A stretch of DNA of 64,000 nucleotides, taken from the NCBI GenBank assembly GCA_049724395.1, contig JAUGWO010000104.1:62001-126000 (forward strand). The letters run 5' to 3'. Positions 9,549 through 35,134 of the stretch are shown in pieces; position 1 is the stretch's first letter, and every line of letters starts with the position of its first letter. The translations under genes were made by a program, and so were the position numbers. The stretch comes from Spongospora subterranea f. sp. subterranea (taxonomy: Eukaryota). The notes under the pieces were generated by a model that searched no databases, was not told where the DNA came from, and worked only from the letters and a program-made list of their open reading frames with translations.

Positions 9549-11822
9549 TGTTACCACTGGAGTATTCATTACCACTGCAGTAGCAGGACAGTGTCGCCAG
9601 CACTCATTTGAATCGAATCACTGGAGCCACTGCAGTAGCAGGACAGTGTCGCCAGCACTCATTTGAATCGAATCACTGGAGCCACTGCAGTAGCAGGACA
9701 GTGTCGCCAGCACTCATTTGAATCGAATCACTGGAGTATTCATTACCACTGCAGTAGCAGGCCAGTGTCGCCAGCACTCATTTGAATCGAATCACTGGAG
9801 TATTCATTACCACTGCAGTCAAAGCAGGACAGTGTCGCCAGCACTCATTTGAATCGAATCACTGGAGTATTCATTACCACTGCAGTAGCAGGCCAGTGTC
9901 GCCAGCACTCATTTGAATCGAATCACTGGAGTATTCATTACCACTGCAGTAGCAGGACAGTGTCGCCAGCACCCATTTGAATCGAATCACTGGAGTATTC
10001 ATTACCACTGCAGTAGCAGGACAGTGTCGCCAGCACTCATTTGAATCGAATCACTGGAGTATTCATTACCACTGCAGTAGCAGGCCAGTGTCGCCAGCAC
10101 TCATTTGAATCGAATCACTGGAGTATTCATTACCACTGCAGTAGCAGGACAGTGTCGCCAGCACCCATTTGAATCGAATCACTGGAGTATTCATTACCAC
10201 TGCAGTAGCAGGACAGTGTCGCCAGCACTCATTTGAATCGAATCACTGGAGTATTCATTACCACTGCAGTAGCAGGACAGTGTCGCCAGCACTCATTTGA
10301 ATCGAATCACTGGAGTATTCATTACCACTGCAGTAGCAGGACAGTGTCGCCAGCACTCATTTGAATCGAATCACTGGAGTATTCATTACCACTGCAGTAG
10401 CAGGACAGTGTCGCCAGCACTCATTTGAATCGAATCACTGGAGTATTCATTACCACTGCAGTAGCAGGACAGTGTCGCCAGCACCCGAATCACTGGAGTA
10501 TTCATTACCACTGCAGTAGCAGGACAGTGTCGCCAGCACTCATTTGAATCGAATCACTGGAGTATTCATTACCACTGCAGTAGCAGGACAGTGTCGCCAG
10601 CACTCATTTGAATCGAATCACTGGAGTATTCATTACCACTGCAGTAGCAGGACAGTGTCGCCAGCACTCATCGAATCACTGGAGTATTCATTACCACTGC
10701 AGTAGCAGGACAGTGTCGCCAGCACTCATTTGAATCGAATCACTGGAGTATTCATTACCACTGCAGTAGCAGGACAGTGTCGCCAGCACCCATTTGAATC
10801 GAATCACTGGAGTATTCATTACCACTGCAGTAGCAGGACAGTGTCGCCAGCACTCATTTGAATCGAATCACTGGAGTATTCATTACCACTGCAGTAGCAG
10901 GACAGTGTCGCCAGCACTCATTTGAATCGAATCACTGGAGTATTCATTACCACTGCAGTAGCAGGACAGTGTCGCCAGCACCCATTTGAATCGAATCACT
11001 GGAGTATTCATTACCACTGCAGTAGCAGGACAGTGTCGCCAGCACCCATTTGAATCGAATCACTGGAGTATTCATTACCACTGCAGTAGCAGGACAGTGT
11101 CGCCAGCACCCATTTGAATCGAATCACTGGAGTATTCATTACCACTGCAGTAGCAGGACAGTGTCGCCAGCACCCATTTGAATCGAATCACTGGAGTATT
11201 CATTACCACTGCAGTAGCAGGACAGTGTCGCCAGCACCCATTTGAATCGAATCACTGGAGTATTCATTACCACTGCAGTAGCAGGACAGTGTCGCCAGCA
11301 CTCATTTGAATCGAATCACTGGAGTATTCATTACCACTGCAGTAGCAGGACAGTGTCGCCAGCACTCAATCGAATCACTGGAGTATTCATTACCACTGCA
11401 GTAGCAGGACAGTGTCGCCAGCACTCATTTGAATCGAATCACTGGAGTATTCATTACCACTGCAGTAGCAGGACAGTGTCGCCAGCACTCATTTGAATCG
11501 AATCACTGGAGTATTCATTACCACTGCAGTAGCAGGACAGTGTCGCCAGCACCCATTTGAATCGAATCACTGGAGTATTCATTACCACTGCAGTAGCAGG
11601 ACAGTGTCGCCAGCACTCATTTGAATCGAATCACTGGAGTATTCATTACCACTGCAGTAGCAGGACAGTGTCGCCAGCACCCATTTGAATCGAATCACTG
11701 GAGTATTCATTACCACTGCAGTAGCAGGACAGTGTCGCCAGCACCCATTTGAATCGAATCACTGGAGTATTCATTACCACTGCAGTAGCAGGACCGTGTC
11801 GCCAGCACCCATTTGAATCGAT
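9549..11822. repeat. Tandem satellite, 64-bp unit, about 36 copies
   Basis: Unit CCACTGCAGTAGCAGGACAGTGTCGCCAGCACTCATTTGAATCGAATCACTGGAGTATTCATTA repeated head-to-tail with few SNPs or short deletions and no unique spacers. Confidence 0.98.
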
Positions 11823-15618: not shown

Positions 15619-16234
15619 ATGGTTGTCGGCCGGGTTGATTTGGTGATACTTTTCTGATGCCTGGTTCAGGTGAAGGTTGGAGATGTTGCTCCGAATTTCT
15701 CGATCCCAGACCAGGACGGGGCAACGATTTCGTTATCGGATTTCAAAGGCAAACGCAATGTGGTTATATTTTTCTATCCGAAAGATAACACGCCTGGCTG
15801 CACCAAAGAGGCTTGTTCGTTTCGTGATAATATGGCCGTTTTCAACGAGCTTGACGCAGAAGGTAGAGATTGCGACGGTTATTCAGGCTCGATCGTTCGG
15901 CAGGTTGACGCTAATCTTTTACAGTGATCGGGATCAGCAATGACACCATTGAATCGCATAAAAAATTCGCTGAGCAGTTCCAGCTGAAGTTCCGCCTTGG
16001 ATCCGATCATCAGGGTGACGTCCGGAAGCTCTACAATGTCACCAGCACATTTGGCATTCCTGGCCGTGTCACTTTCGTTGTCGATAAGAGCGGAATCATA
16101 CAGGAGATGTACGATAGCCAGGTAATTCCGACAAAAACAAATCGATTATTGTGGATCTGAGTCTGAACAGGATTTGGATGCATGAGCACATGAAGCGAGC
16201 CAAATCGGCAATAACCGCCATTTCCGCTCTTTAA
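15619..16234 (+). CDS. Peroxiredoxin BCP/PrxQ, 4 exons
   Basis: [29 protein letters not shown] (CxxxxC), IGISND and [11 protein letters not shown]. The last splice junction looks 1 nt out of frame. Confidence 0.9.
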
Positions 16235-16559: not shown

Positions 16560-17202
16560 ATGTCCGGTTTACCGGACGATTTCTTCTCGGCATCGTCGGG
16601 CCTGTCCCAGAAGAAGGGCAGGAAATCACAGGTGGGCGCCTTGTCCAAACCCAAACGCCCGGCCGATGAAGACAAGACGACTTCTTTACCAAAGCGATTG
16701 AAACCCACTCCCTCCGTCGTGGGTTGAAGTTCCCGCCCCGGTGTCGTTCCCAGTGATTGCGACGTCAACGCCGAACCAATTGATGTAGTTTTAGAGCTCC
16801 TAAATGGAGATATATATATATCGCTAATATCCCTCTCGTCAATAGAGATGCGTTTCGCGACTTCGAACAGGACGTTGCTGCGATATCCGCCGAACAGACA
16901 ATGCATAATAAGGAAATGGTGGAGGCCCTCAACCGGCAAAGAACAGAAACGGAGTCTGATGAACAAAAGTACAATTGCGACATTGGTTGATCCGACGCGT
17001 TTTCTGATCGGTTTTAATTCACAGAGAAATGGTCGACCGGGTCGGAGAACTGAGAAAACGCAGCGAGGCGTACAAGGCCAGGAAAGCGGACCGGCGCCGA
17101 GCACAGCCGCCATCAGGGCACAAACCTGCAGAACCGCAATCCGAACTTGCTCGGGACGACTTACTCGACCCCGATACGGTTTGGAGGAATCGCGCCCTAT
17201 AA
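16560..17202 (+). CDS. Short ZNF830/CCDC16-like coiled-coil protein, multi-exon
   Basis: Spliced product SGLPDDFF...FRDFEQDVAAI...ESDEQ.EMVDRVGELRKR...DTVWRNRAL* resembles the LPxxFF / EQ..RV..L / WR-terminal pattern of ZNF830. Confidence 0.55.
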
Positions 17203-17381
17203 TCGTCATCCTAAAAACAGCTCATTTCTTTTCACGAAACCGCGTCCGTTATTCACCCCAGATCGGGAGATCGCCAGGTGTGGCGTCGTGGGCGATGGCC
17301 CCGCAGAGTATTCTCCAATCCCCCTGAATTTCGCTAGGGCGCCATCCTGGCCTGGATTCACCCAGTTGGACACGCCGCGCC

Positions 17382-20123
17382 ATGGGGTTCACCGAGGACG
17401 ATCTGCTTTCCACGTTCAGCGAATGGAATCGGTCGATCGTCGCCGCACCCGACGTCGACCTGCGCCAGAGCGCCGACGTGTTCGTGGCGGTCTTGCTGGG
17501 CGAAAAGGCGGCGGTTTTCGATGCGGCCACGAGCCAGATCCGATTGAGCGAGACGGTTGTTCTGGGGCGTTGCGCCATTGATCAATAAATCCACGATCTG
17601 ATTCATATCCAGGGAGACGTCCTCTCCGTTCACCGAACGCTGTTCTCGATGTTCCAGCGATCGGTGTCCGCCTTGTCCGCCGCCGATCGCTCCCGAATCG
17701 CCTCGGCGAAATGCGCCCTGCTTCGCCAGTCGCCGGTTCGCAAAGTGGGTGGCGATTACTTCACGCCAATGGTCTGGGTCAGAATTGCCCATCAAACCCT
17801 TGATCGCCATCTAGGTTGGGATTTGACTATCGTTTTCCGTTTTCGTTCAACCCAAAACACATTATCGTTTTGCTGTTTTCGCGATCGTGATTTGTTTCTG
17901 ACGAAGTCGGAAGGCGGCGAGTGGCACAAAACGCACACGGTTTGGGACGCGTCGTGCGGTACTGGAAATCTCACACGAACTCGCCAGATTCGCCAACTGC
18001 TTCTGTCAACTAAACACGAGCAGGTCCCGCGTCGTCCACGAACCGGAAACCGCCACATTTTTTCTCACGATCTGCGTGTGTCTCTGTCAGGATATTCGCA
18101 TCATGGAGCTGTTGGGCTATTGCCGGTCGTCCAACGCCCGTTGCGCCCCGTTCGATTTCCTGTCGTCGATGGGGGTGCCGGACGGGTTCGCCCCGGTCCT
18201 GTCCTGCGCCACCCGCGTCCTGTTCCTGAACAACCCCCCGTATAAGACGGCCAACGAGCAGAGCTTCATTGCCCGGGTAGAACGCCAATCTGGCGTATCG
18301 TCGACGAACGTTAAACAGGTCATTCCCAGTTCGTCCTTCTTTTCCCTTCAACTCCCGTCAATTTCCCTCATCTGTCCCAATGTCGTCATTTTTTCGATTT
18401 CAGCTTTTTTGGGACAACGAACTCGGTTCATTCTTTTGAAATATCTGAATTTTCGCCGTACCGCCCTTGTTTTGTCAATCAGTATCTCCTTTTTCGCTTG
18501 GCGGCAATTGGTGATTTACGACTGATGAATGGCAACAGATGATGAAGAAGGCGAAGCTGACCAGGGACGGGAACCAGGTCGGTAAATGAAGCGACTTTTG
18601 CCAACGGACCCCCGCTGGGGGATTCACCAATCGCAGTTGACGGTCCAGTTCATGTTCAAGTTGAGCGAGATATCCCGTTCGGCGATCTGCCAACGAGCGC
18701 GATCCAATGGCGGCGTGTTCCTGGCCATCTTCACGCCGACCAATATCCTGATCGGCCCCGGATACGAGTCGTTCATGAGGTGATCTCGTGATCAATGGGC
18801 AACGCCTTATCAATTGATCGAAACGTCGCTTGTTTCAGGTTCTGGTCGACGCATTGGGAATACCTGGGCGGATTCATCTTCCCATCGCAATCGTTCTCCG
18901 ACGTGAAGGGCGCGTTCTCCGTCACGTTCTCTATCTGGCGAGCGTATCCATCCGTTCAACCTTCATCGTCCGCTACGACCTCCTATCCCGTTCAGGTCTT
19001 CCAACAGGTTGGCGCGCGTCCGTTCCCGCATCCAACGCAACCCGAGCTGACGGTTCCAGGTCGCCGGCGGGAACGTGACCAACGACGGCGACGGGCGGAT
19101 CCTTCTGCGCGCCGTTCCCCGCCACGAGCGCCTGAACTACTGGGCGCGATCGGATCGAGCCGGGACGGACCTGATCCCGTCGGTCCCGCTGACCAGCGCG
19201 TTATCGGTCCAGACCCCATCCTGCAGGTACGTGGGTCGTGGCGCCATCCGCCCTGACTGTGGTGGTGTGCCATTCCATGAATGATGATTCCGCACAGGTA
19301 CAGGGCGTTGGCCCAGCTGCCGCGCGACGCGCTCGGCTACTGCCACTCGAACGGGAACAGCGTCCAGCATAACGGCCAGCTGGTGGGCCTGTATTCGTCG
19401 ACGTTCGCCGCCGGGCACGGGTTCGTGGTCTGTGGCGATAACTTCCTCAGGGCCTGTGCGGTGTTCGCCGCGCGTCGCCTGATCACCCGTTCGTGGCTGA
19501 ACTGGCAATCGGAATATTCCCGTCCGATCCAGGACCATCCTGGTCTGGTGTCCTGGATGCGCGACGCCGTCGTATTCGCCCTGTTCGACACCAAATCTAA
19601 TCAGTCGTCGCTCCGGTCGCCGGTCGTCGTCGCCAATGCTTGGTTCTGGACCGATGCGCCGCGAATACGACAACTGGCCGAGGACGTCAAATTCCAATCA
19701 ATGATCGACGACCTTGATGCGTCAACGGCCCGCTCTGAACCGTTCGTCGCCCGTTGGCTGAGGGATAATCGCAGCGAACTCGGTGCGTTGTCGTCGAAAA
19801 TGCTCATGTTTTTCTCGGATTTCATTATTGACAATCGCACAGGCGCCGAGGCGATCGACCTCCTGGGGTTCGCCGACCACGTTTTGGAAACGACCATGGC
19901 GTTGCGTCGGTCGGTGCATCTGTCGGGAGCGCAGTTGGAGCTATCGTTGGCGTCGTGGGATGCCGGCTGGTATCAGATACGGAAGGCGCTGCAATCCGTC
20001 CCCTCGGGCACAGCCCACCTTCTCGCCACTTGGAAAACACGTCGCGCCGCCCTCGCCGCCCGTCTACAACCCGGGGTCTACGAGTTCGGATTCCTCGCCG
20101 ACCTCAACAATAAATCGCGCTAA
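17382..20123 (+). CDS. Bacterial RM-type (gamma-class, Type IIG/IIL-like) N6A/N4C DNA methyltransferase, 10 exons, 665 aa
   Basis: Introns 17556-17612, 17815-17913, 18024-18090, 18319-18538, 18578-18636, 18780-18838, 19008-19059, 19227-19297 and 19783-19842 are all GT-AG and give a stop-free 1998-nt CDS. Motifs: X GDYFTP, I VWDASCGTGNL, IV FLNNPPY. C-terminus WDAGWYQIR...LQPGVYEFGFL. Confidence 0.85.
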
Positions 20124-20397
20124 CATTCTAGTCTAACCGCCTTCGTGTCGCAAATTGGGTGGGTCGGTGTCGAATTCTGGTCAAACGCCATGCGTTTAGC
20201 ACCGCCCCATCGTTCACACAGCCTTGACGCATCTGTCCGGGGAAATGAGCCAGTTCGGGACCAAAACGTCGATTTTGCCAACTCGGAGTCCGACGACGCA
20301 GAACCGAAAGAAAAACGCGTTTAAAGAGTGTATTGTGAATGTGAGATCAGGACGGCCGTAATCAATCGCAACTCCACTAGTCGACTAGATCAGCCAC

Positions 20398-21114
20398 TTA
20401 GGCCATGTTCTTCGCCGTCTCCAACTTGTTCGTGACGGTGTCCACGATCGTCCTGGTCTCCGCCTTCTTCGCCTCTGCCGCCTCCAGGGCCGCCGCCTTG
20501 TCGGCGACGAACTGTTCGGATTTGCCGAATTTTGCCACGAGCAATTGCGCCTGAATAGCGGCCAGATCCATGGCGATTTTCGCCTCGGCCACCTTCTTCT
20601 TGTAATGTTCCACCTTCTGATCCCGTTTCATCTCTTTCACTTTCCCTTCGAACGATTTGGCGGCGCTGTGTTCTGAATCCACCTTCTCCTTCTCGACCAA
20701 CGCCTTCTGCTCGTCCGCGATCCTGACCTTATCGCCCGCGTCTTTTTCGGCCTTGGTCACCTTTTCGAGCTGATCCGGCGTCAGATTCGCCTTCGACTCG
20801 GACAGGAATTGCTCTAACAGCACCTTCCTCACTTGCAGATGGTGTCTAATCCTCTTGTTGAACGCCAGATCGTGTTTAACCTGTTCCAGAGCAGTGGCGA
20901 TCGCCCCGAACTTCTTCTCCACGTCCGTCACCTTCGCGAACCGGGTCTTGTCGGCGACGAACGCCACGTACGTCTCCCTGGGCGTCGGCGGGTCCTTGGT
21001 CATCGAGGCGACGACATAGAAATATGTGAGAGAGACGGCGACGATCACGCTGAGCAAGATCAGGGCCGCCGCCGATATGATCACAATCGACACGCTCCGT
21101 GGCTGTCTCGACAT
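20398..21114 (-). CDS. Intronless N-terminal TM/signal-anchor coiled-coil protein (paralog P1, 238 aa)
   Basis: Probable start MSRQPRS at 21114, then a hydrophobic stretch, PTPRETYVAF and a K/E/A-rich helical region. Confidence 0.75.
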   Translation of the reverse strand: MSRQPRSVSIVIISAAALILLSVIVAVSLTYFYVVASMTKDPPTPRETYVAFVADKTRFAKVTDVEKKFGAIATALEQVKHDLAFNKRIRHHLQVRKVLLEQFLSESKANLTPDQLEKVTKAEKDAGDKVRIADEQKALVEKEKVDSEHSAAKSFEGKVKEMKRDQKVEHYKKKVAEAKIAMDLAAIQAQLLVAKFGKSEQFVADKAAALEAAEAKKAETRTIVDTVTNKLETAKNMA

Positions 21115-22610: not shown

Positions 22611-23629
22611 CGTTGTCTCGATAGGGTTTTATCAGCAGTTGACCGCCATCCTCTCGTCCTATCAAATGCACCAAAACACCGTTGTCTCGATAGGGTTTTA
22701 TCAGCTGTTGACCGCCATCCTCTCGTCCTATCAATGCACCAAAACACCGTTGTCTCGATAGGGTTTTCAATCAGCAGTTGACCGCCATCCTCTCGTCCTA
22801 TCAAATGCACCAAAACACCGTTGTCTCGATAGGGTTTTATCAGCTGTTGACCGCCATCCTCTCGTCCTATCAATGCACCAAAACACCGTTGTCTCGATAG
22901 GGTTTTATCAGCAGTTGACCGCCATCCTCTCGTCCTATCAATGCACCAAAACACCGTTGTCTCGATAGGGTTTTATCAGCAGTTGACCGCCATCCTCTCG
23001 TCCTATCAATGCACCAAAACACCGTTGTCTCGATAGGGTTTTATCAGCAGTTGACCGCCATCCTCTCGTCCTATCAATGCACCAAAACACCGTTGTCTCG
23101 ATAGGGTTTTATCAGCTGTTGACCGCCATCCTCTCGTCCTATCAATGCACCAAAACACCGTTGTCTCGATAGGGTTTTATCAGCAGTTGACCGCCATCCT
23201 CTCGTCCTATCAATGCACCAAAACACCGTTGTCTCGATAGGGTTTTATCAGCAGTTGACCGCCATCCTCTCGTCCTATCAATGCACCAAAACACCGTTGT
23301 CTCGAGGGATAGGGTTTTATCAGCAGTTGACCGCCATCCTCTCGTCCTATCAATGCACCAAAACACCGTTGTCTCGATAGGGTTTTATCAGCAGTTGACC
23401 GCCATCCTCTCGTCCTATCAATGCACCAAAACACCGTTGTCTCGATAGGGTTTTATCAGCAGTTGACCGCCATCCTCTCGTCCTATCAATGCACCAAAAC
23501 ACCGTTGTCTCGATAGGGTTTTATCAGCTGTTGACCGCCATCCTCTCGTCCTATCAATGCACCAAAACACCGTTGTCTCGATAGGGTTTTATCAGCTGTT
23601 GACCGCCATCCTCTCGTCCTATCAAATGC
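22611..23629. repeat. Tandem satellite, 68-bp unit, about 15 copies
   Basis: Unit CCGTTGTCTCGATAGGGTTTTATCAGCWGTTGACCGCCATCCTCTCGTCCTATCAATGCACCAAAACA repeated head-to-tail. Confidence 0.98.
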
Positions 23630-23986
23630 GCCACAACACACACACTCACACTACCATTCTACCGGAAAACGACGTGGTGGAACATGCCGTCCCAAATGCG
23701 ATTGGCTCCGATCCCTAAATCAATACCGCCTTTGATTCTATCTTCGTGAAATCTTCTCTGTTTTCGATAACGTGTTCAAGCGGGGTTTATTACAAAGAAC
23801 GACTAATGATGATCGTGTTTCTCCCCCCCGGACACTATCGAATATCATTCAACCAATTACCGATTCGCCCCCAACAAGATAATCCCATACGCCACATTCA
23901 TTCTAGGTATTTAAGTCAATCAATCACCGTCCTCAATTGAGTCAATCTCCGACCAGTTGACTGAATCCCATTACCGGATATGATAG

Positions 23987-24205: not shown

Positions 24206-25044
24206 ATGTTGATGTCCAAGAAATCCTCGTCCATGAAGCCGATCCTGTTCGGATCCCTATCCGTTCTCGTTGCCGCGACCATCGCCGCCGGAACAACCTG
24301 GTACCTGATGCGAGACGGCTCCGCCTGTATCAACGGCGATTGCGATCACCACACCGTTCGCGGCGAGTACGACGCGTTCCTGGCTAAGGAGAAGGTCGAG
24401 ATGGGCAAGGGATCGACGACAGCTACGAGAAGTTGACTCTCGCTGCCTCGTGGATCGTCGACAACGACGCCAACAAGAAACACGCCGCAACCGCGTTGGA
24501 CGCCATCCTGATGCGAGAATACCTGCTCAACCAGATGATCGCCGGCCTCAAGGAGTCTGCCACCGAAGATGTTCTCGCCAAGTTCACCGAGGAACAGGCG
24601 AAACTGAACAAGGACGAAGAGAAACCCGAGACGACCACGACCGCCGATGAGAGCGCGTTGACCGGTGCCGAATTGGTTGCCGAACTCGAGGGAAAACACG
24701 GGAAGGCGGTGTCCGAGGTCGAGTACGCCAAGGCGCTGTTGGCCATGCTCGGTGAGAAACTGGCCAACTCCGCCAAGAATGTCGAAGGCGAGATCGCCGA
24801 GGCCACGAAGAAGATGGTGACGTTAGAGGCCGATGCCGAAGCCCTGAAGGTTAAGTTGGAGGACGCGCGCGCCAAATTGCCGGTCGTTGCCGAACCCAAG
24901 AAAGATGGTGAAGTCGGTGAAACAGAAAATGGTCCCAATGATGAACCAGTTACTGAAGCAGTACAAGTGAATGTTGAAGATGTGCAGACCACACCTCTGA
25001 CCACGGAAGGAGGTGAATCGTCAGTCCCATCATCATCCGCCTGA
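24206..25044 (+). CDS. TM-anchored coiled-coil paralog P2, split by a 2-nt insertion at 24410-24411 (pseudogene or sequence error)
   Basis: ORFs 24206-24436 and 24433-25044 join if GG is removed (MGK-IDDSYEKLTLAA), which gives a gap-free alignment to P3. Confidence 0.7.
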
Positions 25045-26516
25045 ACAATATCTGGGGACGTCCCGAGATAGGTTCTTAAACAGTGGTGTTATCGCAACTT
25101 GTTCTAATACAATATCGTCACTTGTTTGAACTAATCATCTCCCCCCTTTGATTGTCAATCCATTCCATGACCGATCTAGGGACGTTGTTCATATTCGGAA
25201 TTCCATTTTGTATGAAATCCTTTTGACTATACCTCTTTTGAGCTGTTTGTTGTGGGCGGATTTTGTTTGGTTTTCAACCTAAATTCACAATCCATTGTCG
25301 AGCGCTCTCGAAAAAGTTCGCAATTTCCAATTTTGGGTTTATGGTAGGACTGGTACTAACGGATGGCGAATGGGTTCATATACAATAGCACTACGACCTT
25401 TCAGAGTTTGTTTGTTTGTTTGTTTGTTTTTTTGGTGACTTTATAGGTCAGAATAGGTGAACGGGTTAATTAATCATTTTAAAAAAAATTGGCGATTAGA
25501 TGGAAAGGAAGGAGAAGTGGGTCAGATCGGTTCGATGATGATGGTGAATGGGGTTCAGGGAAGAAGACGGTAAAGGAAATAGATTATGGAGATGATGGCG
25601 ACAATGGCAATATGATAACGATATGGTCGAGAGGATGGCGCTAGCGAAGCGGCGCAAGGAATGGGGTCCCCATGGAAGAATGAAGGGCGCTGGACCAGCG
25701 ATGGAGCCGTCGCCGATATAAACACAACATCGTCACGAGCGGGCGAATATCGACCTGTTGTTGGTAAAGGGATGATCAGCGATCGCCATTCACTGTCGAC
25801 AAGTATCGAACAAGAAACTCGGAAGCGAGGGGTGATATTTAAAATGAAAAGGTGAATAATCATAACCCACCAGATGATATGGCGCGTTTCATTGATCGCG
25901 ATTCACTCCATTGACGTTCTGTTCCTACACAGCAGAATATACCGCGATGACATTTGTAAAAGTATGTGTCATCCCCTGACCTGAACGAAACGGGGAGAAC
26001 AAACGCCTTCCCAATCTAGATAGGGACGATCCGATGAAGAGACCGCCGATAAACACTGTCAGAGCGCCAATCGCTTCAACGATGATCATCAGTTACTATT
26101 TCGCGGTGGATAGTGGGATGGACGGGATGGCGCTATAGCAGCCAGCCAGTTCAGGACCAGGCCCAACTGCTGCTGCCCCATCCCATGATGTGCAGTACAC
26201 CAGACCACACTTTGAACCATGTCCGGAACATGGGATACGGGAAATGAGAATGGCGACGGCCAGATTAAAACAGAAGGGATTAGAGGATTGGGGATCAGTC
26301 AATTAACAACCGGATCAGATATCCTGAAACGGCGGAGACCAGGATCGTTCATGAGAGTATTTTCTATCAACGCTCTGAACATAAGGTCGAGGTTAAACCT
26401 GTGTAGGTAGGGTAAAAAGTACTTGGCAAGGTAGGTTATACCCTACCACCACTATGGAGATATTGATTATATCTTTACCTTCTACTCTATATTTATTCTC
26501 ATCATTTAAATCCCTA

Positions 26517-26889
26517 TTACCACTGTAATTTACCCGTTTTACTCTCATCATTTACCTGTTACCACTGTAATTTACCCGTTTTACTCTCATCATTTACCTG
26601 TTACCACTGTAATTTACCCGTTTTACTCTCATCATTTACCTGTTACCACTGTAATTTACCCGTTTTACTCTCATCATTTACCTGTTACCACTGTAGTTTA
26701 CCCGTTTTACTCTCATCATTTACCTGTTACCACTGTAATTTACCCGTTTTACTCTCATCATTTACCTGTTACCACTGTAATTTACCCGTTTTACTCTCAT
26801 CATTTACCTGTTACCACTGTAATTTACCCGTTTTACTCTCATCATTTACCTGTTACCACTGTAATTTACCCGTTTTACTCTCATCATTT
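26517..26889. repeat. Tandem repeat, 42-bp unit, left part (about 9 copies)
   Basis: Unit TTACCACTGTAATTTACCCGTTTTACTCTCATCATTTACCTG. Confidence 0.97.
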
Positions 26890-26899
26890 TGTGAGCCGG

Positions 26900-27208
26900 A
26901 ACCTGTCCAGCAACATGTTCTCGCTGTGAAGCGCATATTGCGCTATATCAAGGGGACCATTGAGTATGGAATCGTTTTTGGACGAGGAAAAGGGTTGACA
27001 ATGTATCGCGAAAAATACGATACTGGGCCGCCGTTCAACGTCACAAGCATTCCAGACGTTGACCGCCTATCGTCTTGATTTCCGGCCCAATCGGAATCGC
27101 AATACATTTTCAACCCTTTTCCTCGTCCAAAAACGATTCCATACTCAATGGTCCCCTTGATATAGCGCAATACGCGCTTCACAACGAGAACATGTTGCTG
27201 GACAGGTT
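26900..27208. repeat. 107-bp inverted duplication (26900-27006 vs 27102-27208) at the truncated copia 3' end
   Basis: Direct reverse-complement comparison shows 3 mismatches. Confidence 0.92.
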
Positions 27209-30200
27209 TATCGACAAAACGTGCGACAGCGTTGACAGCTTCTGTGATATCAGGCCTTGTCATTATCGCCAAATACATTAGCGAACCGACAGCTTCGCGA
27301 TACGGAAAACTTGTTACTGCGTCGCCTTTCTCCGACCGAATAAGCTTGACAGAGGTAGAACCTGGCGTAGCCACAGGCCGCGAGTTTTCCATATGGAACC
27401 GGTGAACAACATCGCGCGCGTACGCTTCCTGACTCAACTTTATGGTTTTCGCCAATCGATCACGAACGATTTTACAACCGAGTAGAAAACCGATCGCGCC
27501 TAAGTCCTTGATTGGAAATGTTTTCCCAATACCCCTTTTAGATTCTCATACATCACTGCGTCTGTAGAAACGATAAGCATATCATCAATATGCACGGATG
27601 CCATCAAGAAAGAACTTGCGTTTTTCTGAAAGAAAACGCAGGCATCGGCATTCAAGAACTGATATCCACGTCCACCAGGATCTTGTTCATCCGAGAATTC
27701 AATTCAAAAGCCGCTTGTTTTAGACCGTATAACGCCTTTCGAAGACGTCCACAGTGCGACAAACGCGACGTACCCTCCGGGAAATTCACGCCCTCCGGCA
27801 ACTCGATAAACAATTTCTCGCGGACATCTTGATGCTGGAAGGATGTCTCAATGTCCAATTGGTACGCCTCCAGATTTTCGGCTGCGGCTTTCGCCAACAG
27901 GATTCGTTGTGAATCGGTAGATGCCACGGGGGCATACGTGTCAACGTAATCCACACCTGGTACCTGAGAGAAACCCCTGGCAACGTAACGAGCCTTATAT
28001 CGAACGGGTTTACCTTCGGCATCATGCTTTAACTTGAAAACCCAGCGTCCGTCAATAACGCTTCTATCTGCTGGCCTAGGCACTATCTCCCAAGTGCCAT
28101 TCTTGCCGAGGCTTTTCAGCTTCTCCAGCATTGCAGACTCCCATTCCGCTGCGTTATCAAAAGACAGAGCTTCTCGACGATTCTTTGGATCAAACGACGA
28201 CTGCGCCAGATACACCGCCTCTTGCGCATATCGAAGAGGGGCGATACGCCTTCGCGTTGATCTTCGCAACTCCTGGGTGACCTCAGCATCTGCAGCATCT
28301 GACCCATCACTCTTGCCGGTACTTTCAGCATCGTCACTATCCGTTTCGGCGTCGATCGCAGCTTGCTCCTCCAAACCCCACTGATTCTCCCAGAACTTGA
28401 CGTCCCGTGTCACAATAATTTTACGAGTACTCCGGTCCAGAATACGATAACCTTTCGAGGTGAGTGAATAACCCAACATGACACCTTGTCGAGCTCGTTC
28501 GTCCAACTTCTTCGCTTTATCATCCTTGTACATGACAAAACAACCAAACACTCGCAAATTGGATACATTCGGCTTCGTACCGTATACTTGCTCGTAAGGA
28601 GTGACATTTCTGGGTAACACCTTGGTATTAGCGCGATTACGCAGATAAGCGGCTGTAGATAACGCCTCGGCCCACCACTGTTTTCCCATATCCACTTGGA
28701 ACAACATGGTGCGCGCCATGCCCATCAACGTGCGATTCATCCGCTCCGCCACGCCATTCTGCGCCTGACGGCGAGGAATGCTACATTCGTGTCGGATGCC
28801 GTGATCGCTCATGAACGCTTGAAAGTCGCCGTCCATGTACTCGCCACCATTATCAGACCGAAGACATTTAATCTTCCGATCATGAGCATTCTCCACCAAT
28901 GCCTTATGACGTTTGAACCATCCAAACACTTCGGATTTGGCGGCCAGAAAATAAACAGTGACAAATCTCGAATAGTCATCGATGAAGGTCAAAACGAACT
29001 TCTTGCCGCCCGGCGATGCCACCGACATTGGACCAATCACATCAGAATGAATCAGGTCATTTACACCTTGTGCCCGCCTTGTCGCAGACTTTGGCATTTG
29101 TGTTCGTGCGGCCTTGCCTCGCATACAGTGAACGCAATCACTCGGCTTTCCACCGACCAGCTCCATACCGATCACCGTAATATTTGCAATATCCTGCGTC
29201 AGCGCGTCGTATCCGATATGACCACGTCGTCTGTGCCAAACTTGCTGAGTGGCAGCGATCAGGGCAGACTGTTGCATTGGCAAACGGATCTTGTACAGCC
29301 GTCCAACACGGAAACCGATGTTCAGCGTGCGATTTCCGAGGCGCATACTGCAATACTGCTCATTAAAATTGACCATCGTCGCACCATCGTCGCAGGCAGC
29401 ACTAATAGAGAACAAACCAGCGGCAACATGCGGAACATGGAGCATATTCTGCAGCACAATTCGACTACCGTCTAACGCCATAATCTCAAGCGACCCAACC
29501 CCAATGGCCGCAATAGTTCGCTCATTACCAAGACTGATTTCTACAGGAAAATCCAGCTCCTTGTACGAACGAAGACGGTTCTTGTCCAAACAAATTGGTC
29601 GGCGCCAATATCATTGTCGAGTTGCGCCCGGAACGCGGTCTCAGACAATTCCCCCGCTGCATGATCCGACATGGAAACATATTGAATCGGCGTTTCCACG
29701 GATATCGCGTCAGTTTTCGCCTCGGCCGTCCTGTTGACCCCATTCGATGTGCTTTTCGCGACCAAAAGCCAATCATCATTGGCCTTATGACTAGCCATGT
29801 TCCCCTTTTCGTTGTCGTGGCTCTCCTTGGTTTTCCGCAGTGGGAATTGCGCTGACAAATGACCAACCTGATGACATCGGTAACATTTACGTCAATCCTT
29901 CCCACCTGCCCGACCACCCATCTTTGCGTTCGATCGCACGTTTACGCGATCCTTGGCAAATAGCAGTCCTTCATTCTTTGCTGCTTTCTTGTGAATGCCA
30001 TTGTACTTCTCATCCTCGAGCAACAAAACACTGAACAATTCCGGGATCGTTACATTTGTCTTATTGGACAGCACAGTAACAATCACACGCATGTGGTCAG
30101 CCACCACACTGCACAGCAAGGTACGGATGAACTCATCATCCGTCATTTGACCACCAGCAGTTTTAAGATCCTCATAGAGACGGCGCATATCTTGAAAGGA

Positions 30201-30534
30201 ATCCTGATAAATTGTCTTCACGATACTGCTTGGTCCTCATTCGCTGACCAATAGCGATTACATGGCCCGTGCTCTCAGTCGCAAAACGTTGCTTTAATGC
30301 CTTCCATGCCTCATATGGGTTGCTCGTTCCCATGATTTCGACGACGACGTTGGGTTCAACTGCGGCGACCAATTCCGCAAAGACCTGCTTGGTCTGACCC
30401 TGTTCATCCTTGCGCCAATCGTGTTCGATGAGTTTCTCCCCCCCCCCTACCCTCCAAGTAAACTCGGAAGGTAAAAGCCCACTAGTTCGCAGATCCTCGC
30501 TGGCGCTCGCCTTTAAACGAGGAGGCCTTTGCGG

Positions 30535-31167: not shown

Positions 31168-31316
31168 CATTTACCTGTTACCACTGTGATTTACCCGTTT
31201 TACTCTCATCATTTACCTGTTACCACTGTAATTTACCCGTTTTACTCTCATCATTTACCTGTTACCACTGTAATTTACCCGTTTTACTCTCATCATTTAC
31301 CTGTTACCACTGTAAT
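31168..31316. repeat. 42-bp tandem repeat, right part (about 3.5 copies)
   Basis: Same unit as 26517-26889, resuming in register after the TSD. Confidence 0.95.
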
Positions 31317-32136
31317 ATCCCCGTTCTTCCACGCTAAGGTTAGCTCACAAACGCCCAAAAGACTGTTTTGTTGACAATTACGATTTACCCAGACATAACG
31401 AAGCAATGTTTTACGATTAATTATAGACGATGAAGAGACTGTGTTTGTTAAATATAGTCACCTCTGATTTTCGTTGGCACATCCTTGAATGGTTGTAGGT
31501 AGGTTTACAGATGGATATTGTGCTCATCTACGTTGATTAATATAAATCACGCGTTAGATTCAGGGATTTCCGATGTGGAATCGCCCAGAATTCTGGTCGA
31601 CAATTGTTCAGAAACGATCATCTCAGTCTCTACCAAACGCGCCTCATCAATCATCCCAAAGTTGGTTTCAGATTGTTTTCACAATACTCCTTTTCGTCAT
31701 CCCCGACATGGCCAGATTATTGCAATTGTCTTCCCAGCTGGTTTAATCGGTTCCTTCAGTGGATACCCAAGCTACCTTTGTAGTGGTCAGGCGGAAGTAG
31801 GGAAACACTGGTAGTACACAGGATTACCCGACCAATAAGAACCCGCTATCCTTTTTATACCATACCAATTGTCTTCCCAACTTCACTCAACTCGTTTTTG
31901 CAATAGCTGTTGCGCCATCGACCCTGTGTCGCATTGCCACAATTGGTCTCGATATCGTCGGCCAAATACCAATGTCGGGCGACCCCAAATCAACCTGACC
32001 AACTCCATTCTCACCAGTGTCCAATCCGACAACACGTGGTTGTGTCGACCGTTTCTCCCCGATTTGGTTGTAGAGTAGGGGACCACCGATTCCAGTACAA
32101 CCGGCGAGATATGGACAACACGAAATCGCAGGTGAT

Positions 32137-33042
32137 TTATTCGATCAGCAGTCGACTGTCTAATTGACCTGCGACGCCTTCATTGCCACTCTGGTCCAGA
32201 TCGTTGTCGATACTGTTGGACAGTTCGCCCGCGACAGCGGTCTTCTGGCCGAATGGAGCTGGGTCGTGTTCCCCGTCTGAGACACTCCAAACAGCAGAGG
32301 ATAGGCGATTGGCGTCGCCAAAAGTAAAAGGACTCGTTCCGAAGCTTTGTTCCCGGCCGTCCCGTTCGCTCTTGAGCTCCTCCAATCTGTCCTGGAACAT
32401 TTTGACGTTTTTGATTGCTGTGGTCAATTCGGTCTTAAAACCATTTGAGTGTATGCGATCCTCCGCCAATGCAGATTCCGTATCTATATTGGTGCGCACG
32501 AACTTCACCTCGCGTTCGGCCTGTTCAACAAGTTTACTATAATACTCGATCTTTTCGTCGATATTCATATTCGTCTCATCCTGTGGTATTTCTCTCTCAT
32601 TTGCCTCCTCTTTCATCCAGTTGTCCACGATCGCATTTCCCGCCAACTTCTTCTTCTCATCAAGTGGTGCCTGGAACTCCTTGAATGCGGATTGTTCGCT
32701 CGGTGTCAGAGCGGGGGTCAGCGAGATCATCAAATCGGTCAGTAATAGCTTGCGCATGCCGAGATTATAGACGATATCTTGGTTTTTGGTAATCTTATAG
32801 TAAAGGGAATCGATCAAGATGGCGACGTGTTTGACCTGGTTCAGGTTTCCGATGATCTGGCCGATCTGCTCCCTCTCCTTGGCGAACGCTTTGTAGACGG
32901 CCCTGACTGTTGGCAGATCACCTTCCGGTTCCCTCATGATGATCCAGGTCGTCAGAGCTGTGCAGATGGCGGTCACGATCACACTGATACTAACGATAGC
33001 GCCAATCGTGTTGAACTCTGTGCTACGCTGGCTCATGATCAT
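32137..33042 (-). CDS. TM-anchored coiled-coil paralog P3 (301 aa)
   Basis: Intronless ORF with N-terminal TM, LPTVRAVYKAF, NLGMRKLLL and DEKIEYYSKLV. Confidence 0.75.
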   Translation of the reverse strand: MIMSQRSTEFNTIGAIVSISVIVTAICTALTTWIIMREPEGDLPTVRAVYKAFAKEREQIGQIIGNLNQVKHVAILIDSLYYKITKNQDIVYNLGMRKLLLTDLMISLTPALTPSEQSAFKEFQAPLDEKKKLAGNAIVDNWMKEEANEREIPQDETNMNIDEKIEYYSKLVEQAEREVKFVRTNIDTESALAEDRIHSNGFKTELTTAIKNVKMFQDRLEELKSERDGREQSFGTSPFTFGDANRLSSAVWSVSDGEHDPAPFGQKTAVAGELSNSIDNDLDQSGNEGVAGQLDSRLLIE

Positions 33043-33194
33043 GTTGTCAAGATACGCGCCGTTAAGATCTATAGATTAGTTAAATTGCTGTAAATTAAAT
33101 ACGGGATTTGAATATTTGGTCGGGGAATTGATTTCACTCAGGTTTAATGCCAGAACGGGATATGTCAGTTGCCCGTCTATCCAATGGTGACGGG

Positions 33195-33590: not shown

Positions 33591-34201
33591 TTATTTGTTG
33601 GGATAACACGAGAATGACCAGAATCCCAAACACTAGTTGATTATAAAGAGATGTATTTGTACTACTAGTGACATTTTGACCACAGAGAAGTAGATCGTGA
33701 TAATGGGAGTTTCATTGTATCGAGAAATGCTATTTCGCCTTCAATTAAGGACACACCATATTGCTGGCATCCATTTCAACGGTTCAATCAACTTGAGATC
33801 GAGTTAAAACCTTTTCTCAGAGATAAATCAACCAGTTCAATTCCCTTCTCAAGTATCAGAGATTGATCAGATCAAACCGTATTCGTCCCACCCTGATGAG
33901 TGACCAACACGCCCAGGCTGGTCACGGATCGGCCGATGAGAGTCCGATAAGCCCGTGGTATCGCCAGTAACAAAACCCTCAATAGGGGGCTGTGCCGTAG
34001 TACTACCCCAATTCCGGCACGCCGTCTGACTGTATAACTCAGCAGTTCCAGCAGTGTTCCAGCCCACGGTGGCCGGTGCGCTCAATGTCAGACAGATCTC
34101 CAGTAACGCGGACTTTAGGGTTTTGACCAATGCTGATGCAGTTCGCAGTCCGCTGGATCCCGTTCCAGCTCTCATTCGGTTAATTGCCAGTTCCAGCCAC
34201 G

Positions 34202-35134
34202 ATGGGTAAAGTCGTCGTTATCGCGGTCATCGCCGCAGCCGCTGTTGCCGCTATCCTTTCCGGGGTCGGTGTATGCATGTTCATGAGCGGGGGTACCTCC
34301 TCTGGAGCGGAATTCTCGATGAAGAAAATCTTCATTGCCAGCGAAGGTCAAGCTAGCAAGGTACAACTGGAGCACGAAGCCATCTCAAAGATCACATTGG
34401 TCAACAACGATGTCAACAACGCCGAACTGGGATTGGATGCTGCCGTCAAATCGTGTTATCGTCAACAGTTCTGGGCTTTCATTGCTGTTGCAAAACAGGA
34501 GGAAACTTTCCTCTCGATTATGACAGATGACAACGTGTCTGAGGATGACAAAGCGGCCGTTAAGAAGGCGTACGAGGAGTTCAATGCGCAGAAGGCCGCC
34601 AAACGTGCCGACGACCTTGCAGCTTCTATCAAGATCAAAGAGGAGAAGGCCGCTGAACAACAGAAGAACGACAAGAAGGCCCTTGACAAGAACCCTAAGG
34701 CCTATTGCAAACAGCAAAAGTTCAAACTGACCCAGGATGCCAAGCTGTTTGAACATCAAGTCAAATTCTTCACCGCGCAACAGAAGTTCGACCAGGAACG
34801 GAACGAGCGGATGTTAAAGGAAGCTGAAGAGAAGAAGGCCAAAGTCCAGGAACAGCTTGCCGAAATCGCGAAGATGATGAAAGAGTTCGAGTCGAACGAT
34901 GCGAATACGGAGAAGAAAGAGGCTGAGAAGACCAAACAGGACAGCGAAGGGCAAAACTCTGAGAGCAATGTGCCCGAAAAACAGCCTGAGATCCCGTCGA
35001 CCCAGCCTGAGATCCCGGCGACCCAGCCTGAGACCCCGGCGACCCAGCCTGAGAACGCGGCGGCTGAGCCTGAGGTCTTGAATAACATCCCAGTGATTGA
35101 AGGCGATGGCACCGATTCGTCGTCTACTCAATAA
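34202..35134 (+). CDS. TM-anchored coiled-coil protein, distant paralog P4, with C-terminal 7-aa repeats
   Basis: Intronless ORF; MGKVVVIAVIAAAAVAAIL; K/E/Q-rich helices; QPEIPST/QPEIPAT/QPETPAT repeats. Confidence 0.75.
   Translation: MGKVVVIAVIAAAAVAAILSGVGVCMFMSGGTSSGAEFSMKKIFIASEGQASKVQLEHEAISKITLVNNDVNNAELGLDAAVKSCYRQQFWAFIAVAKQEETFLSIMTDDNVSEDDKAAVKKAYEEFNAQKAAKRADDLAASIKIKEEKAAEQQKNDKKALDKNPKAYCKQQKFKLTQDAKLFEHQVKFFTAQQKFDQERNERMLKEAEEKKAKVQEQLAEIAKMMKEFESNDANTEKKEAEKTKQDSEGQNSESNVPEKQPEIPSTQPEIPATQPETPATQPENAAAEPEVLNNIPVIEGDGTDSSSTQ

What the first reader, a model, noticed from the sequence alone, without database searches (positions are those of the whole stretch)
17382..20123. Intron-containing bacterial RM-type DNA methyltransferase in a eukaryote
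Seen: nine GT-AG introns splice by hand into a stop-free 665-aa ORF with GDYFTP, VWDASCGTGNL and NNPPY in X-I-IV order, followed by a long C-terminal region; the exons look GC-richer than neighbouring housekeeping genes. Known: this motif order with a C-terminal TRD is the gamma-class amino-MTase layout of bacterial Type IIG/IIL enzymes, distinct from eukaryotic MT-A70 and DNMT families. From memory, unverified: the WDAGWYQI...VYExGFL tail occurs in a poorly characterised bacterial/phage family. Inference: an old horizontal acquisition, kept with intact catalytic motifs, that may write sequence-specific 6mA or 4mC in the host. The introns and eukaryotic neighbours argue against contamination.
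Basis: partly seen in the sequence, partly recalled or inferred. Interest (0 to 1): 0.9.

Follow-up and report, generated by a model that had tools for sequence, protein, structure and literature searches.

The report
Domesticated restriction-enzyme methylase in a protist
A protist, likely a relative of the clubroot parasite, has a spliced nine-intron gene related to bacterial and phage restriction-modification enzymes; it lacks their DNA-cutting part, keeps the methyl-transfer motifs, and likely writes a fixed, sequence-specific adenine methyl mark on DNA.

Summary
Nine GT-AG introns give a stop-free 665-aa protein. All nine joints occur in one RNA-type contig, and a poly(A) end lies 13 nt past the stop. 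Plasmodiophora brassicae has an ortholog: 48% identical, same start point, three intron positions shared. The gene is therefore old and nuclear, not contamination. It belongs to a single-gene family of bacteria, archaea and phages with no curated profile match, built as nuclease + helical domain + gamma amino-MTase + variable cassette + helical tail (Type IIG/IIL layout). The protist protein starts where the nuclease ends. The ortholog's predicted fold matches N6-adenine DNA MTases best (DrdV Z 18.7). The putative recognition cassette is 66% identical between the two protists, against 37% for equally diverged relatives (1 of 1529 pairs as high), which suggests a frozen target. Two corrections: high GC is shared with neighbours, and the gene does not nest in a bacterial lineage. 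Its sister group (100/100) is a set of unplaced metagenomic ORFs; five keep the nuclease motifs, and some carry OTU or HMG-like domains. Activity is untested.

The parts
17382..20123 (+). 10-exon gene for a 665-aa nuclease-less RM-type amino-methyltransferase
17382..17555 (+). exon 1, start of the helical domain; aligns from residue 4 to about residue 183 of 810-aa prokaryotic homologs, just after their nuclease
17613..17814 (+). exon 2; motif X GDYFTP at 17751-17768
17914..18023 (+). exon 3; motif I VWDASCGTGNL at 17940-17972
18091..18318 (+). exon 4; conserved FDFL (D184) and catalytic motif IV NPPY at 18229-18243
18539..18577 (+). exon 5 (39 nt)
18637..18779 (+). exon 6; conserved L-x-x-Q-F
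18839..19007 (+). exon 7; F318 at 18894-18896 (99% conserved; motif VIII label recalled); end of the MTase domain near residue 334, where several phage homologs are split into two ORFs
19060..19226 (+). exon 8; variable linker and start of the putative recognition cassette (residue 383 at 19141)
19298..19782 (+). exon 9; core of the putative recognition cassette (to residue 491, 19538), the part most conserved with P. brassicae
19843..20123 (+). exon 10; C-terminal helical domain with WDAGWYQI (19956-19979), VYEFGFL (20076-20096) and the stop
20124..20136 (+). 13-nt 3' UTR ending at a poly(A) addition site
   Evidence: loose end in X4 (one contig)
16560..17202 (+). upstream eukaryotic gene with two spliced introns (ZNF830-like by recall; no Pfam or NCBIfam hit); its stop lies 179 nt before the ATG, leaving no room for a nuclease exon
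20398..21111 (-). downstream convergent ORF with a hydrophobic N-terminal segment and a lysine/glutamate-rich region; no family hit

Best explanation
This is a spliced, polyadenylated gene of a protist (likely a plasmodiophorid) that descends from a single-chain restriction-modification family, lacks the nuclease, and likely works as a stand-alone, sequence-specific DNA N6-adenine methyltransferase with one long-fixed target. Shown: gene structure, splicing, ortholog, nuclease absence, intact motifs X, I and IV, unusual conservation of the cassette. Predicted: a gamma-class DNA MTase fold. Inferred mechanism: SAM binds at motifs X and I; the cassette (residues about 383-491) reads a short, probably asymmetric DNA site; the target adenine is flipped against NPPY and F318 and methylated, probably on one strand as in Type IIL enzymes. 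Inferred role: a host-kept mark on nuclear DNA. The biological use of that mark is not determined.
For: Splicing and poly(A). Ortholog P0249 318/665 identical from residue 1. P. brassicae DNA-derived ORFs leave the spliced protein at the positions of introns 5, 8 and 9, near intron 7, and read through at intron 6. Fragment P0220 departs at intron 9 too. The window protein keeps 69 of 94 family-conserved columns, including G105, T109, P110, D137, G141, D184, NPPY and F318. Fold of the ortholog P0001: pLDDT 84.5; the top Foldseek and VIA rows are DNA adenine MTases (DrdV Z 18.7, rmsd 3.8, 264 aligned; BseCI 17.8; TaqI 16.9; MmeI 16.7 with 381 aligned over residues 19-588), KsgA-type rows lower at 15.1-15.4. 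The cassette behaves like a specificity module: tandem copies in 6 of 286 proteins that have it, and it diverges faster than the MTase among relatives (37% against 51%). It is 66% identical between the two protists (1 of 1529 pairs as high; 1 high value, 0.71, among 68 disjoint pairs). A best-window control gave 0 of 510. Five of 6 exonic differences to the RNA sample are synonymous (p 0.005) and the one indel is in frame.
Against: No activity or methylome data. The C-terminal part folded alone gives only weak matches (BseCI Z 4.8, DrdV 4.4, within noise), so the recognition role is indirect. No prokaryotic member is experimentally characterised in anything I could search: no Pfam or NCBIfam model passes its cut-off for the proteins closest to this gene, and PADLOC and PHROGs give only weak, partial MTase matches. 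The window protein has no clear basic C-terminal cluster, unlike P0249, so nuclear import is not shown. All spliced evidence is from one sample. Intron 1 is retained in the X2 and X3 contigs. The polymorphism test has n = 6. The pair counts are not phylogenetically independent.
Confidence: 0.62

Rival explanations
1. Same origin and DNA target, but the mark is N4-methylcytosine rather than 6mA.
For: NPPY fits the general amino-MTase motif (PMC4738411, section read). Some NPPY enzymes of Type I systems make 4mC (recalled); a PacII M1M2S structure is among the fold hits. The best-studied captured amino-MTase in eukaryotes, N4CMT, makes 4mC (PMC8885841, abstract).
Against: Motif IV begins with N, not S; the top fold matches DrdV, BseCI, TaqI and CamA are titled or known as adenine-specific.
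Confidence: 0.08
2. The protein is kept as a sequence-specific DNA (or RNA) binder or scaffold; catalysis is weak, lost or redirected to RNA.
For: The strongest conservation lies in the cassette, not the catalytic core. Several captured bacterial MTases in eukaryotes are thought to be inactive or redirected to RNA (PMC4738411, section 9).
Against: The SAM-binding and catalytic residues are kept in both protists; there is no RNA-binding fusion; RNA MTase folds rank below DNA MTases.
Confidence: 0.17
3. The gene is a remnant of a virus- or mobile-element-borne RM system that mainly protects or marks foreign or repeat DNA (counter-restriction, element control) instead of writing a genome-wide host mark.
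For: The family is common in phage contigs (206 of 364 candidates). The sister ORFs are intronless, and 5 of the 10 examined keep the nuclease motifs. Giant viruses of Rhizaria carry motif-specific MTases (PMC13196603, passages).
Against: Nine introns, ordinary eukaryotic neighbours, and retention in at least two genera. No viral or transposon gene lies within about 6 kb. Three IMG/VR scans for the sister ORFs found no relative.
Confidence: 0.1
4. Bacterial contamination, a decaying pseudogene or a hand-splicing artefact.
For: Intron 1 is unspliced in two contigs.
Against: 9 of 9 joints, poly(A), an ortholog with shared introns, and mostly synonymous differences.
Confidence: 0.02

Closest known systems
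Type IIG/IIL single-chain RM enzymes (DrdV 7LO5, MmeI 5HR4, BpuSI 3S1S)
   Same: Domain order helical - gamma MTase - recognition region - helical tail; best sequence-profile PDB hit is DrdV (E 0.024); best fold hit is DrdV, and MmeI aligns over residues 19-588; prokaryotic relatives carry the N-terminal nuclease.
   Different: Only 8-13% identity: a separate family. The protist protein has no nuclease, has nine introns, and its cassette is conserved instead of variable.
Stand-alone gamma N6-adenine DNA MTases (M.TaqI, M.BseCI, CamA)
   Same: X-I-IV order, NPPY, C-terminal recognition region, no nuclease.
   Different: It derives from a fused RM family and keeps that family's N-terminal helical domain; it is a eukaryotic gene.
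N4CMT of bdelloid rotifers (PMC8885841, abstract)
   Same: Bacterial amino-MTase captured long ago by a eukaryote and kept as a host gene.
   Different: N4CMT makes 4mC and is guided by a fused chromodomain. This gene has no chromatin-reader fusion, keeps its own recognition cassette and probably makes 6mA.
Group-2 (EcoKI/TaqI-type) clades 5 and 6 of Iyer et al. (PMC4738411, section 9 and supplement passages)
   Same: Gamma-type N6A MTases with a specificity domain in rhizarians; one Reticulomyxa copy keeps a nuclease.
   Different: Clade 5 is Type I-like with Pfam N6_Mtase and Methylase_S hits; the Bigelowiella and fungal rows are fused to Sel1 repeats. This family has neither. 'GWYQ' and 'Plasmodiophora' occur 0 times in that supplement as held.
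PBRA_006996 / SPQ92952.1 of Plasmodiophora brassicae
   Same: Ortholog, 48-51% identical, same start, shared introns.
   Different: Annotated only as hypothetical or unnamed; it has a basic C-terminal tail and lacks intron 6.

Membership tests
Gamma-class amino-methyltransferase | Motif order X, I ... IV with (D/N/S)PP(Y/F/W) | tested here: met
   GDYFTP 105, WDASCGTG 136, NPPY 210
Gamma-class amino-methyltransferase | Class I Rossmann MTase fold like TaqI/EcoKI | tested here: met
   Model of the ortholog P0001, Z 16-18.7 to DNA adenine MTases; the spliced window protein itself was not folded whole
Gamma-class amino-methyltransferase | Target-recognition domain C-terminal to the catalytic domain | tested here: inconclusive
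   Whole-model alignment to MmeI and BseCI spans it, and it is a variable, tandem-duplicated, separable cassette in relatives; alone it gives only Z 4.4-4.8
Gamma-class amino-methyltransferase | SAM-dependent methylation of DNA adenine N6 (or cytosine N4) | not testable with these tools
   No assay or methylome available
Type IIG/IIL RM enzyme (window protein) | N-terminal PD-(D/E)xK nuclease in the same chain | tested here: not met
   A nuclease profile from homologs finds nothing in the protein or in six frames of the window (best E 3); the ortholog also starts at the helical domain
Type IIG/IIL RM enzyme (prokaryotic relatives) | Nuclease + MTase + recognition region in one gene | tested here: met
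   E..ExK..QxxxY 99-100% conserved in the 146-148 of 165 rows that have the region; the domain is in the same ORF in 65 of 69 GTDB loci; the nuclease label rests on motif knowledge, not on a fold search
Type IIL | Single-strand methylation of an asymmetric site and cleavage at a distance | not testable with these tools
   No biochemical data on any member
Eukaryotic MT-A70, DNMT, HemK, Trm11 | Pfam profile match or nearest-relative status | tested here: not met
   No such Pfam hit for the exons or the orthologs; nearest relatives are the RM family
Iyer Group-2 clades 5/6 | N6_Mtase + Methylase_S (RAGNYA) domains, or Sel1-repeat fusion | tested here: not met
   No such Pfam domains in P0001 or P0249; the family's tail motif is absent from their supplement; no direct alignment to those clades was made
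Horizontally acquired gene | Nested within a donor lineage in a rooted tree | tested here: inconclusive
   The clade of 2 protist and 8 unplaced ORFs is separated from 23 other rows at 100/100, unrooted and not nested
Horizontally acquired gene | Patchy in eukaryotes, widespread in prokaryotes and phages | tested here: met

The most novel reading that the evidence does not exclude
Eukaryotes, or their DNA viruses, harbour an unrecognised lineage of single-chain restriction-modification enzymes. Some members remain complete nuclease-methylases fused to OTU or HMG-like domains and basic tails. Plasmodiophorids domesticated the methylase half and froze its specificity, giving these parasites a bacterial-style, motif-specific adenine methylome written without any chromatin-reader domain.
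Probability: 0.35. Interest if true: 0.87.

Novelty: new variant of a known kind. Interest (0 to 1): 0.63.

Why it matters
Eukaryotic 6mA is mostly attributed to MT-A70/AMT1 enzymes, and well-characterised captured bacterial DNA amino-methylases are few. This gene names a concrete candidate for a different kind of writer, one that uses its own bacterial-type sequence reader, in an unculturable group of crop parasites. Its prediction (one conserved methylated motif shared by plasmodiophorid species) can be tested at once on existing long-read raw data. The sister ORFs raise the larger possibility of complete RM enzymes in eukaryotes or their viruses. The work also defines an uncurated, widespread prokaryote and phage RM family.

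Tried and rejected
No whole genome is held, so copy number, other DNA methylases and synteny with P. brassicae were not examined. GC content as a sign of transfer: rejected, because neighbours share high GC3 and most viral relatives sit in lower-GC DNA. An upstream nuclease exon: not found. Donor lineage: four sequence sets (139, 178, 53 and 33 rows) gave no bacterial sister; the first set lacked the sister ORFs. A conserved partner gene in prokaryotic loci: none; the largest neighbour cluster covered 11 of 149 loci. Context for the sister ORFs: 0 loci in three IMG/VR scans. Further eukaryotic loci in JGI metagenomes: none, 0 of 28 and then 79 loci at 24-35% identity. GenBank phages: no match. 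The C-terminal model gave no Foldseek hit at E 0.001 and no VIA Z above 5.0. No run was on record as RNA; the second study's runs cover neighbours but give no spliced MTase contig in the rows shown, which says nothing about expression. OTU in P0101 and P0255 is by motif only (pairwise E 0.004); HMG box in P0255 is below the Pfam cut-off. A weak profile hit at window 57113 (E 7e-4) was not followed. Earlier findings: none. Literature: 10 searches listed no paper on this gene or on 6mA in plasmodiophorids. Term look-ups in PMC6823432, PMC12903343, PMC13746701 and bioRxiv 2026.10.14.759018 found no 'methyl', and bioRxiv 2024.10.28.620566 and 2026.05.21.726589 no 'Plasmodiophora'. bioRxiv supplements, REBASE and subscription journals were not visible.

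Full report
Observation. Introns 2 and 9 are in frame and stop-free, so they needed outside evidence. Homolog alignments require their removal, and contigs show it directly: run X1 has all 9 joints, X2 and X3 have 7 of 9, X5 none. X1-X4 are one sample and 'RNA' is the tool's guess, but joints at GT-AG introns and a non-templated A-run with adapter at 20136 fit mRNA. A profile of 165 homologs without the protist rows gives the spliced protein 435 bits; the best of 200 shuffles gets 0.4.

Host and age. The best hit is P. brassicae PBRA_006996 (300/590 identical). A second annotation of the same gene (P0249, 675 aa, on a 2.1-Mb contig) aligns from residue 1 with 318/665 identities. Window GC is 46.9%; PMC6328671 (passage) gives 45.1% for Polymyxa betae, 45.7% for Spongospora subterranea and 58.5% for P. 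brassicae. The host is thus probably another plasmodiophorid; the species was not determined. Two ORFs called on P. brassicae DNA leave the spliced protein exactly at window introns 5, 8 and 9 and near 7, and read through 6; introns 1-4 were not testable. A 162-aa metagenomic fragment (P0220, 62-64% identical) also departs at intron 9. The gene was therefore acquired and had gained introns before these lineages split. Against the RNA sample, 5 of 6 exonic substitutions are synonymous (expected fraction 0.25, p 0.005) and the single indel is 6 nt.

The family. No curated model describes them well. Their first 180 or so residues carry E, ExK and QxxxY at 99-100% in the 146-148 of 165 rows that have the region, the pattern of a PD-(D/E)xK nuclease (label from established knowledge). 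The domain shares an ORF with the MTase in 65 of 69 GTDB loci. Natural variants exist: about 535-aa forms without nuclease, forms split into two ORFs near window residue 334, and one viral locus (L072) split exactly where the protist gene starts. No partner gene recurs. This is the anatomy of a single-gene Type IIG/IIL-like system.

The protist protein. It begins at the helical domain; a nuclease profile finds nothing in it or in the window, and the upstream gene ends 179 nt before the ATG. It keeps 69 of 94 family-conserved columns, including the SAM-binding and catalytic motifs. The AlphaFold model of the ortholog (pLDDT 84.5) matches DNA adenine MTases first: DrdV Z 18.7, BseCI 17.8, LlaGI 17.3, CamA 17.0, TaqI 16.9, MmeI 16.7 over residues 19-588; KsgA-type enzymes reach 15.1-15.4 on the catalytic domain only. 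Many of these Z values are tied. The C-terminal 274 residues folded alone (pLDDT 89) give only weak matches, BseCI and DrdV ranking second and third at Z 4.8 and 4.4: inconclusive.

A frozen recognition cassette. Residues about 383-491 are tandemly repeated in 6 of 286 proteins with the module, which sets its bounds independently. Among 1529 pairs of non-eukaryote-clade relatives whose MTase domains are 48-60% identical, the cassette is 37% identical (sd 7). Between the window and P. brassicae (MTase 54%) it is 66%, reached by 1 of 1529 pairs; among 68 disjoint pairs the mean is 0.39 and the maximum 0.71. The 69-residue core is 80% identical, and none of 510 sampled pairs has any C-terminal window that high. 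The pairs are not independent. The inference is that diversifying selection typical of RM specificity was replaced by purifying selection on one target. It argues for a kept function but does not prove catalysis.

Origin. With prokaryotic and viral rows alone the two protist proteins sit on a long unplaced branch. The representative search added intronless metagenomic ORFs that group with them: 13 rows at 99 in FastTree and 99 SH-aLRT in IQ-TREE. In the careful run, without long rows P0151 and P0195, fragment P0220 and P0124, 10 rows group at 100/100 (the 23 other rows were hand-picked: 9 named genomes, 4 viral, 10 unnamed). Five of these ORFs keep the nuclease motifs. P0110 has an OTU domain above the Pfam cut-off, and P0255 a sub-threshold HMG box. 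Eleven of 12 clade members have tails of 10 or more residues against 0 of 95 other proteins; 6 tails match a basic-cluster pattern, the window's does not. Their genomes are unknown: eukaryotic or eukaryote-virus origin is an inference, and long-branch attraction is not fully excluded. Transfer from the prokaryote and phage pool remains the simplest reading (about 85%), but donor, route and direction within the clade are open. High GC is not evidence: flanking genes have similar GC3.

Comparison with what is known. Capture of bacterial amino-MTases by eukaryotes is established: N4CMT (PMC8885841, abstract) and many clades in Iyer et al. (PMC4738411; part 2 of the text, section 9 and supplement passages read), including TaqI/EcoKI-type enzymes with specificity domains in rhizarians. 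Those clades are Type I-like or fused to Sel1 repeats; this family's tail motif and Plasmodiophora are absent from the supplement as held. Ten searches listed no paper on this gene. It works, most likely, like an orphan gamma N6-adenine DNA methylase; it is not itself a Type IIG/IIL enzyme, since the nuclease test fails.

Verdict. The finding is real, well supported as an old domesticated gene, and apparently undescribed. It is a new variant of a known kind. The probability of an active sequence-specific 6mA DNA methylase is about 0.6. Interest 0.63, rising to about 0.87 if the motif-specific methylome and the wider nuclease-bearing eukaryote-associated clade are confirmed.

Noticed in passing
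P0101, P0110, P0116, P0210, P0255 (metagenomic proteins): Intronless 930-1360-aa relatives with intact nuclease motifs plus OTU (P0110, Pfam), OTU-like motifs (P0101, P0255), an HMG-box-like region (P0255) and basic or acidic tails: possible complete RM enzymes of eukaryotes or their viruses.
   Followed up: partly
window 17025-17598: Contigs of the upstream gene in X2 and X4 run unspliced through MTase exon 1 and stop inside intron 1; X3 retains intron 1 (in-frame stop) but splices later introns. Overlapping 3' UTR, read-through or a shorter isoform from Met71 are all possible.
   Followed up: partly
window 16721, 21119, 21669, 22087, 24409: RNA contigs lack 1-2 bases present in the window; at 16721 this falls in the upstream gene's coding region. 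Probably assembly errors or strain differences.
   Followed up: no
P0021, P0039, P0041, P0196, P0278: Prokaryotic family members with large inserts; weak intein-splicing hits in P0021 and P0039 (insert in motif I), LAGLIDADG hits in P0196 and P0278.
   Followed up: no
P0099, P0108, P0119, P0002, P0115, P0202; L123, L171: Tandem copies of the putative recognition cassette, suggesting specificity switching by recombination.
   Followed up: partly
L072:4144-6605; L089, L101, L124, L125, L127, L132, L138-L146: Naturally split versions: nuclease separate from the rest (L072), or nuclease-MTase separate from the C-terminal part.
   Followed up: partly
window 9572-11821, 22611-23639, 26513-26889, 31168-31325: Tandem arrays of 64-bp (about 34 copies), 68-bp (15 copies) and 42-bp units.
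   Followed up: no
window 26943-30236 (-): Copia-type LTR retrotransposon pol (integrase, RVT_2), interrupted.
   Followed up: no
window 20398-21111 (-), 24230-25044 (+), 32137-33075 (-), 34184-35134 (+): Several single-exon ORFs with an N-terminal hydrophobic segment followed by a charged coiled-coil-like region, three of them with GC3 0.65-0.80; no family hit for the two scanned. Possibly a lineage-specific membrane-anchored family.
   Followed up: no
window 16120-16171: A joint listed with GG..AG ends in four runs, possibly a non-canonical or shifted splice site at the end of the peroxiredoxin gene.
   Followed up: no
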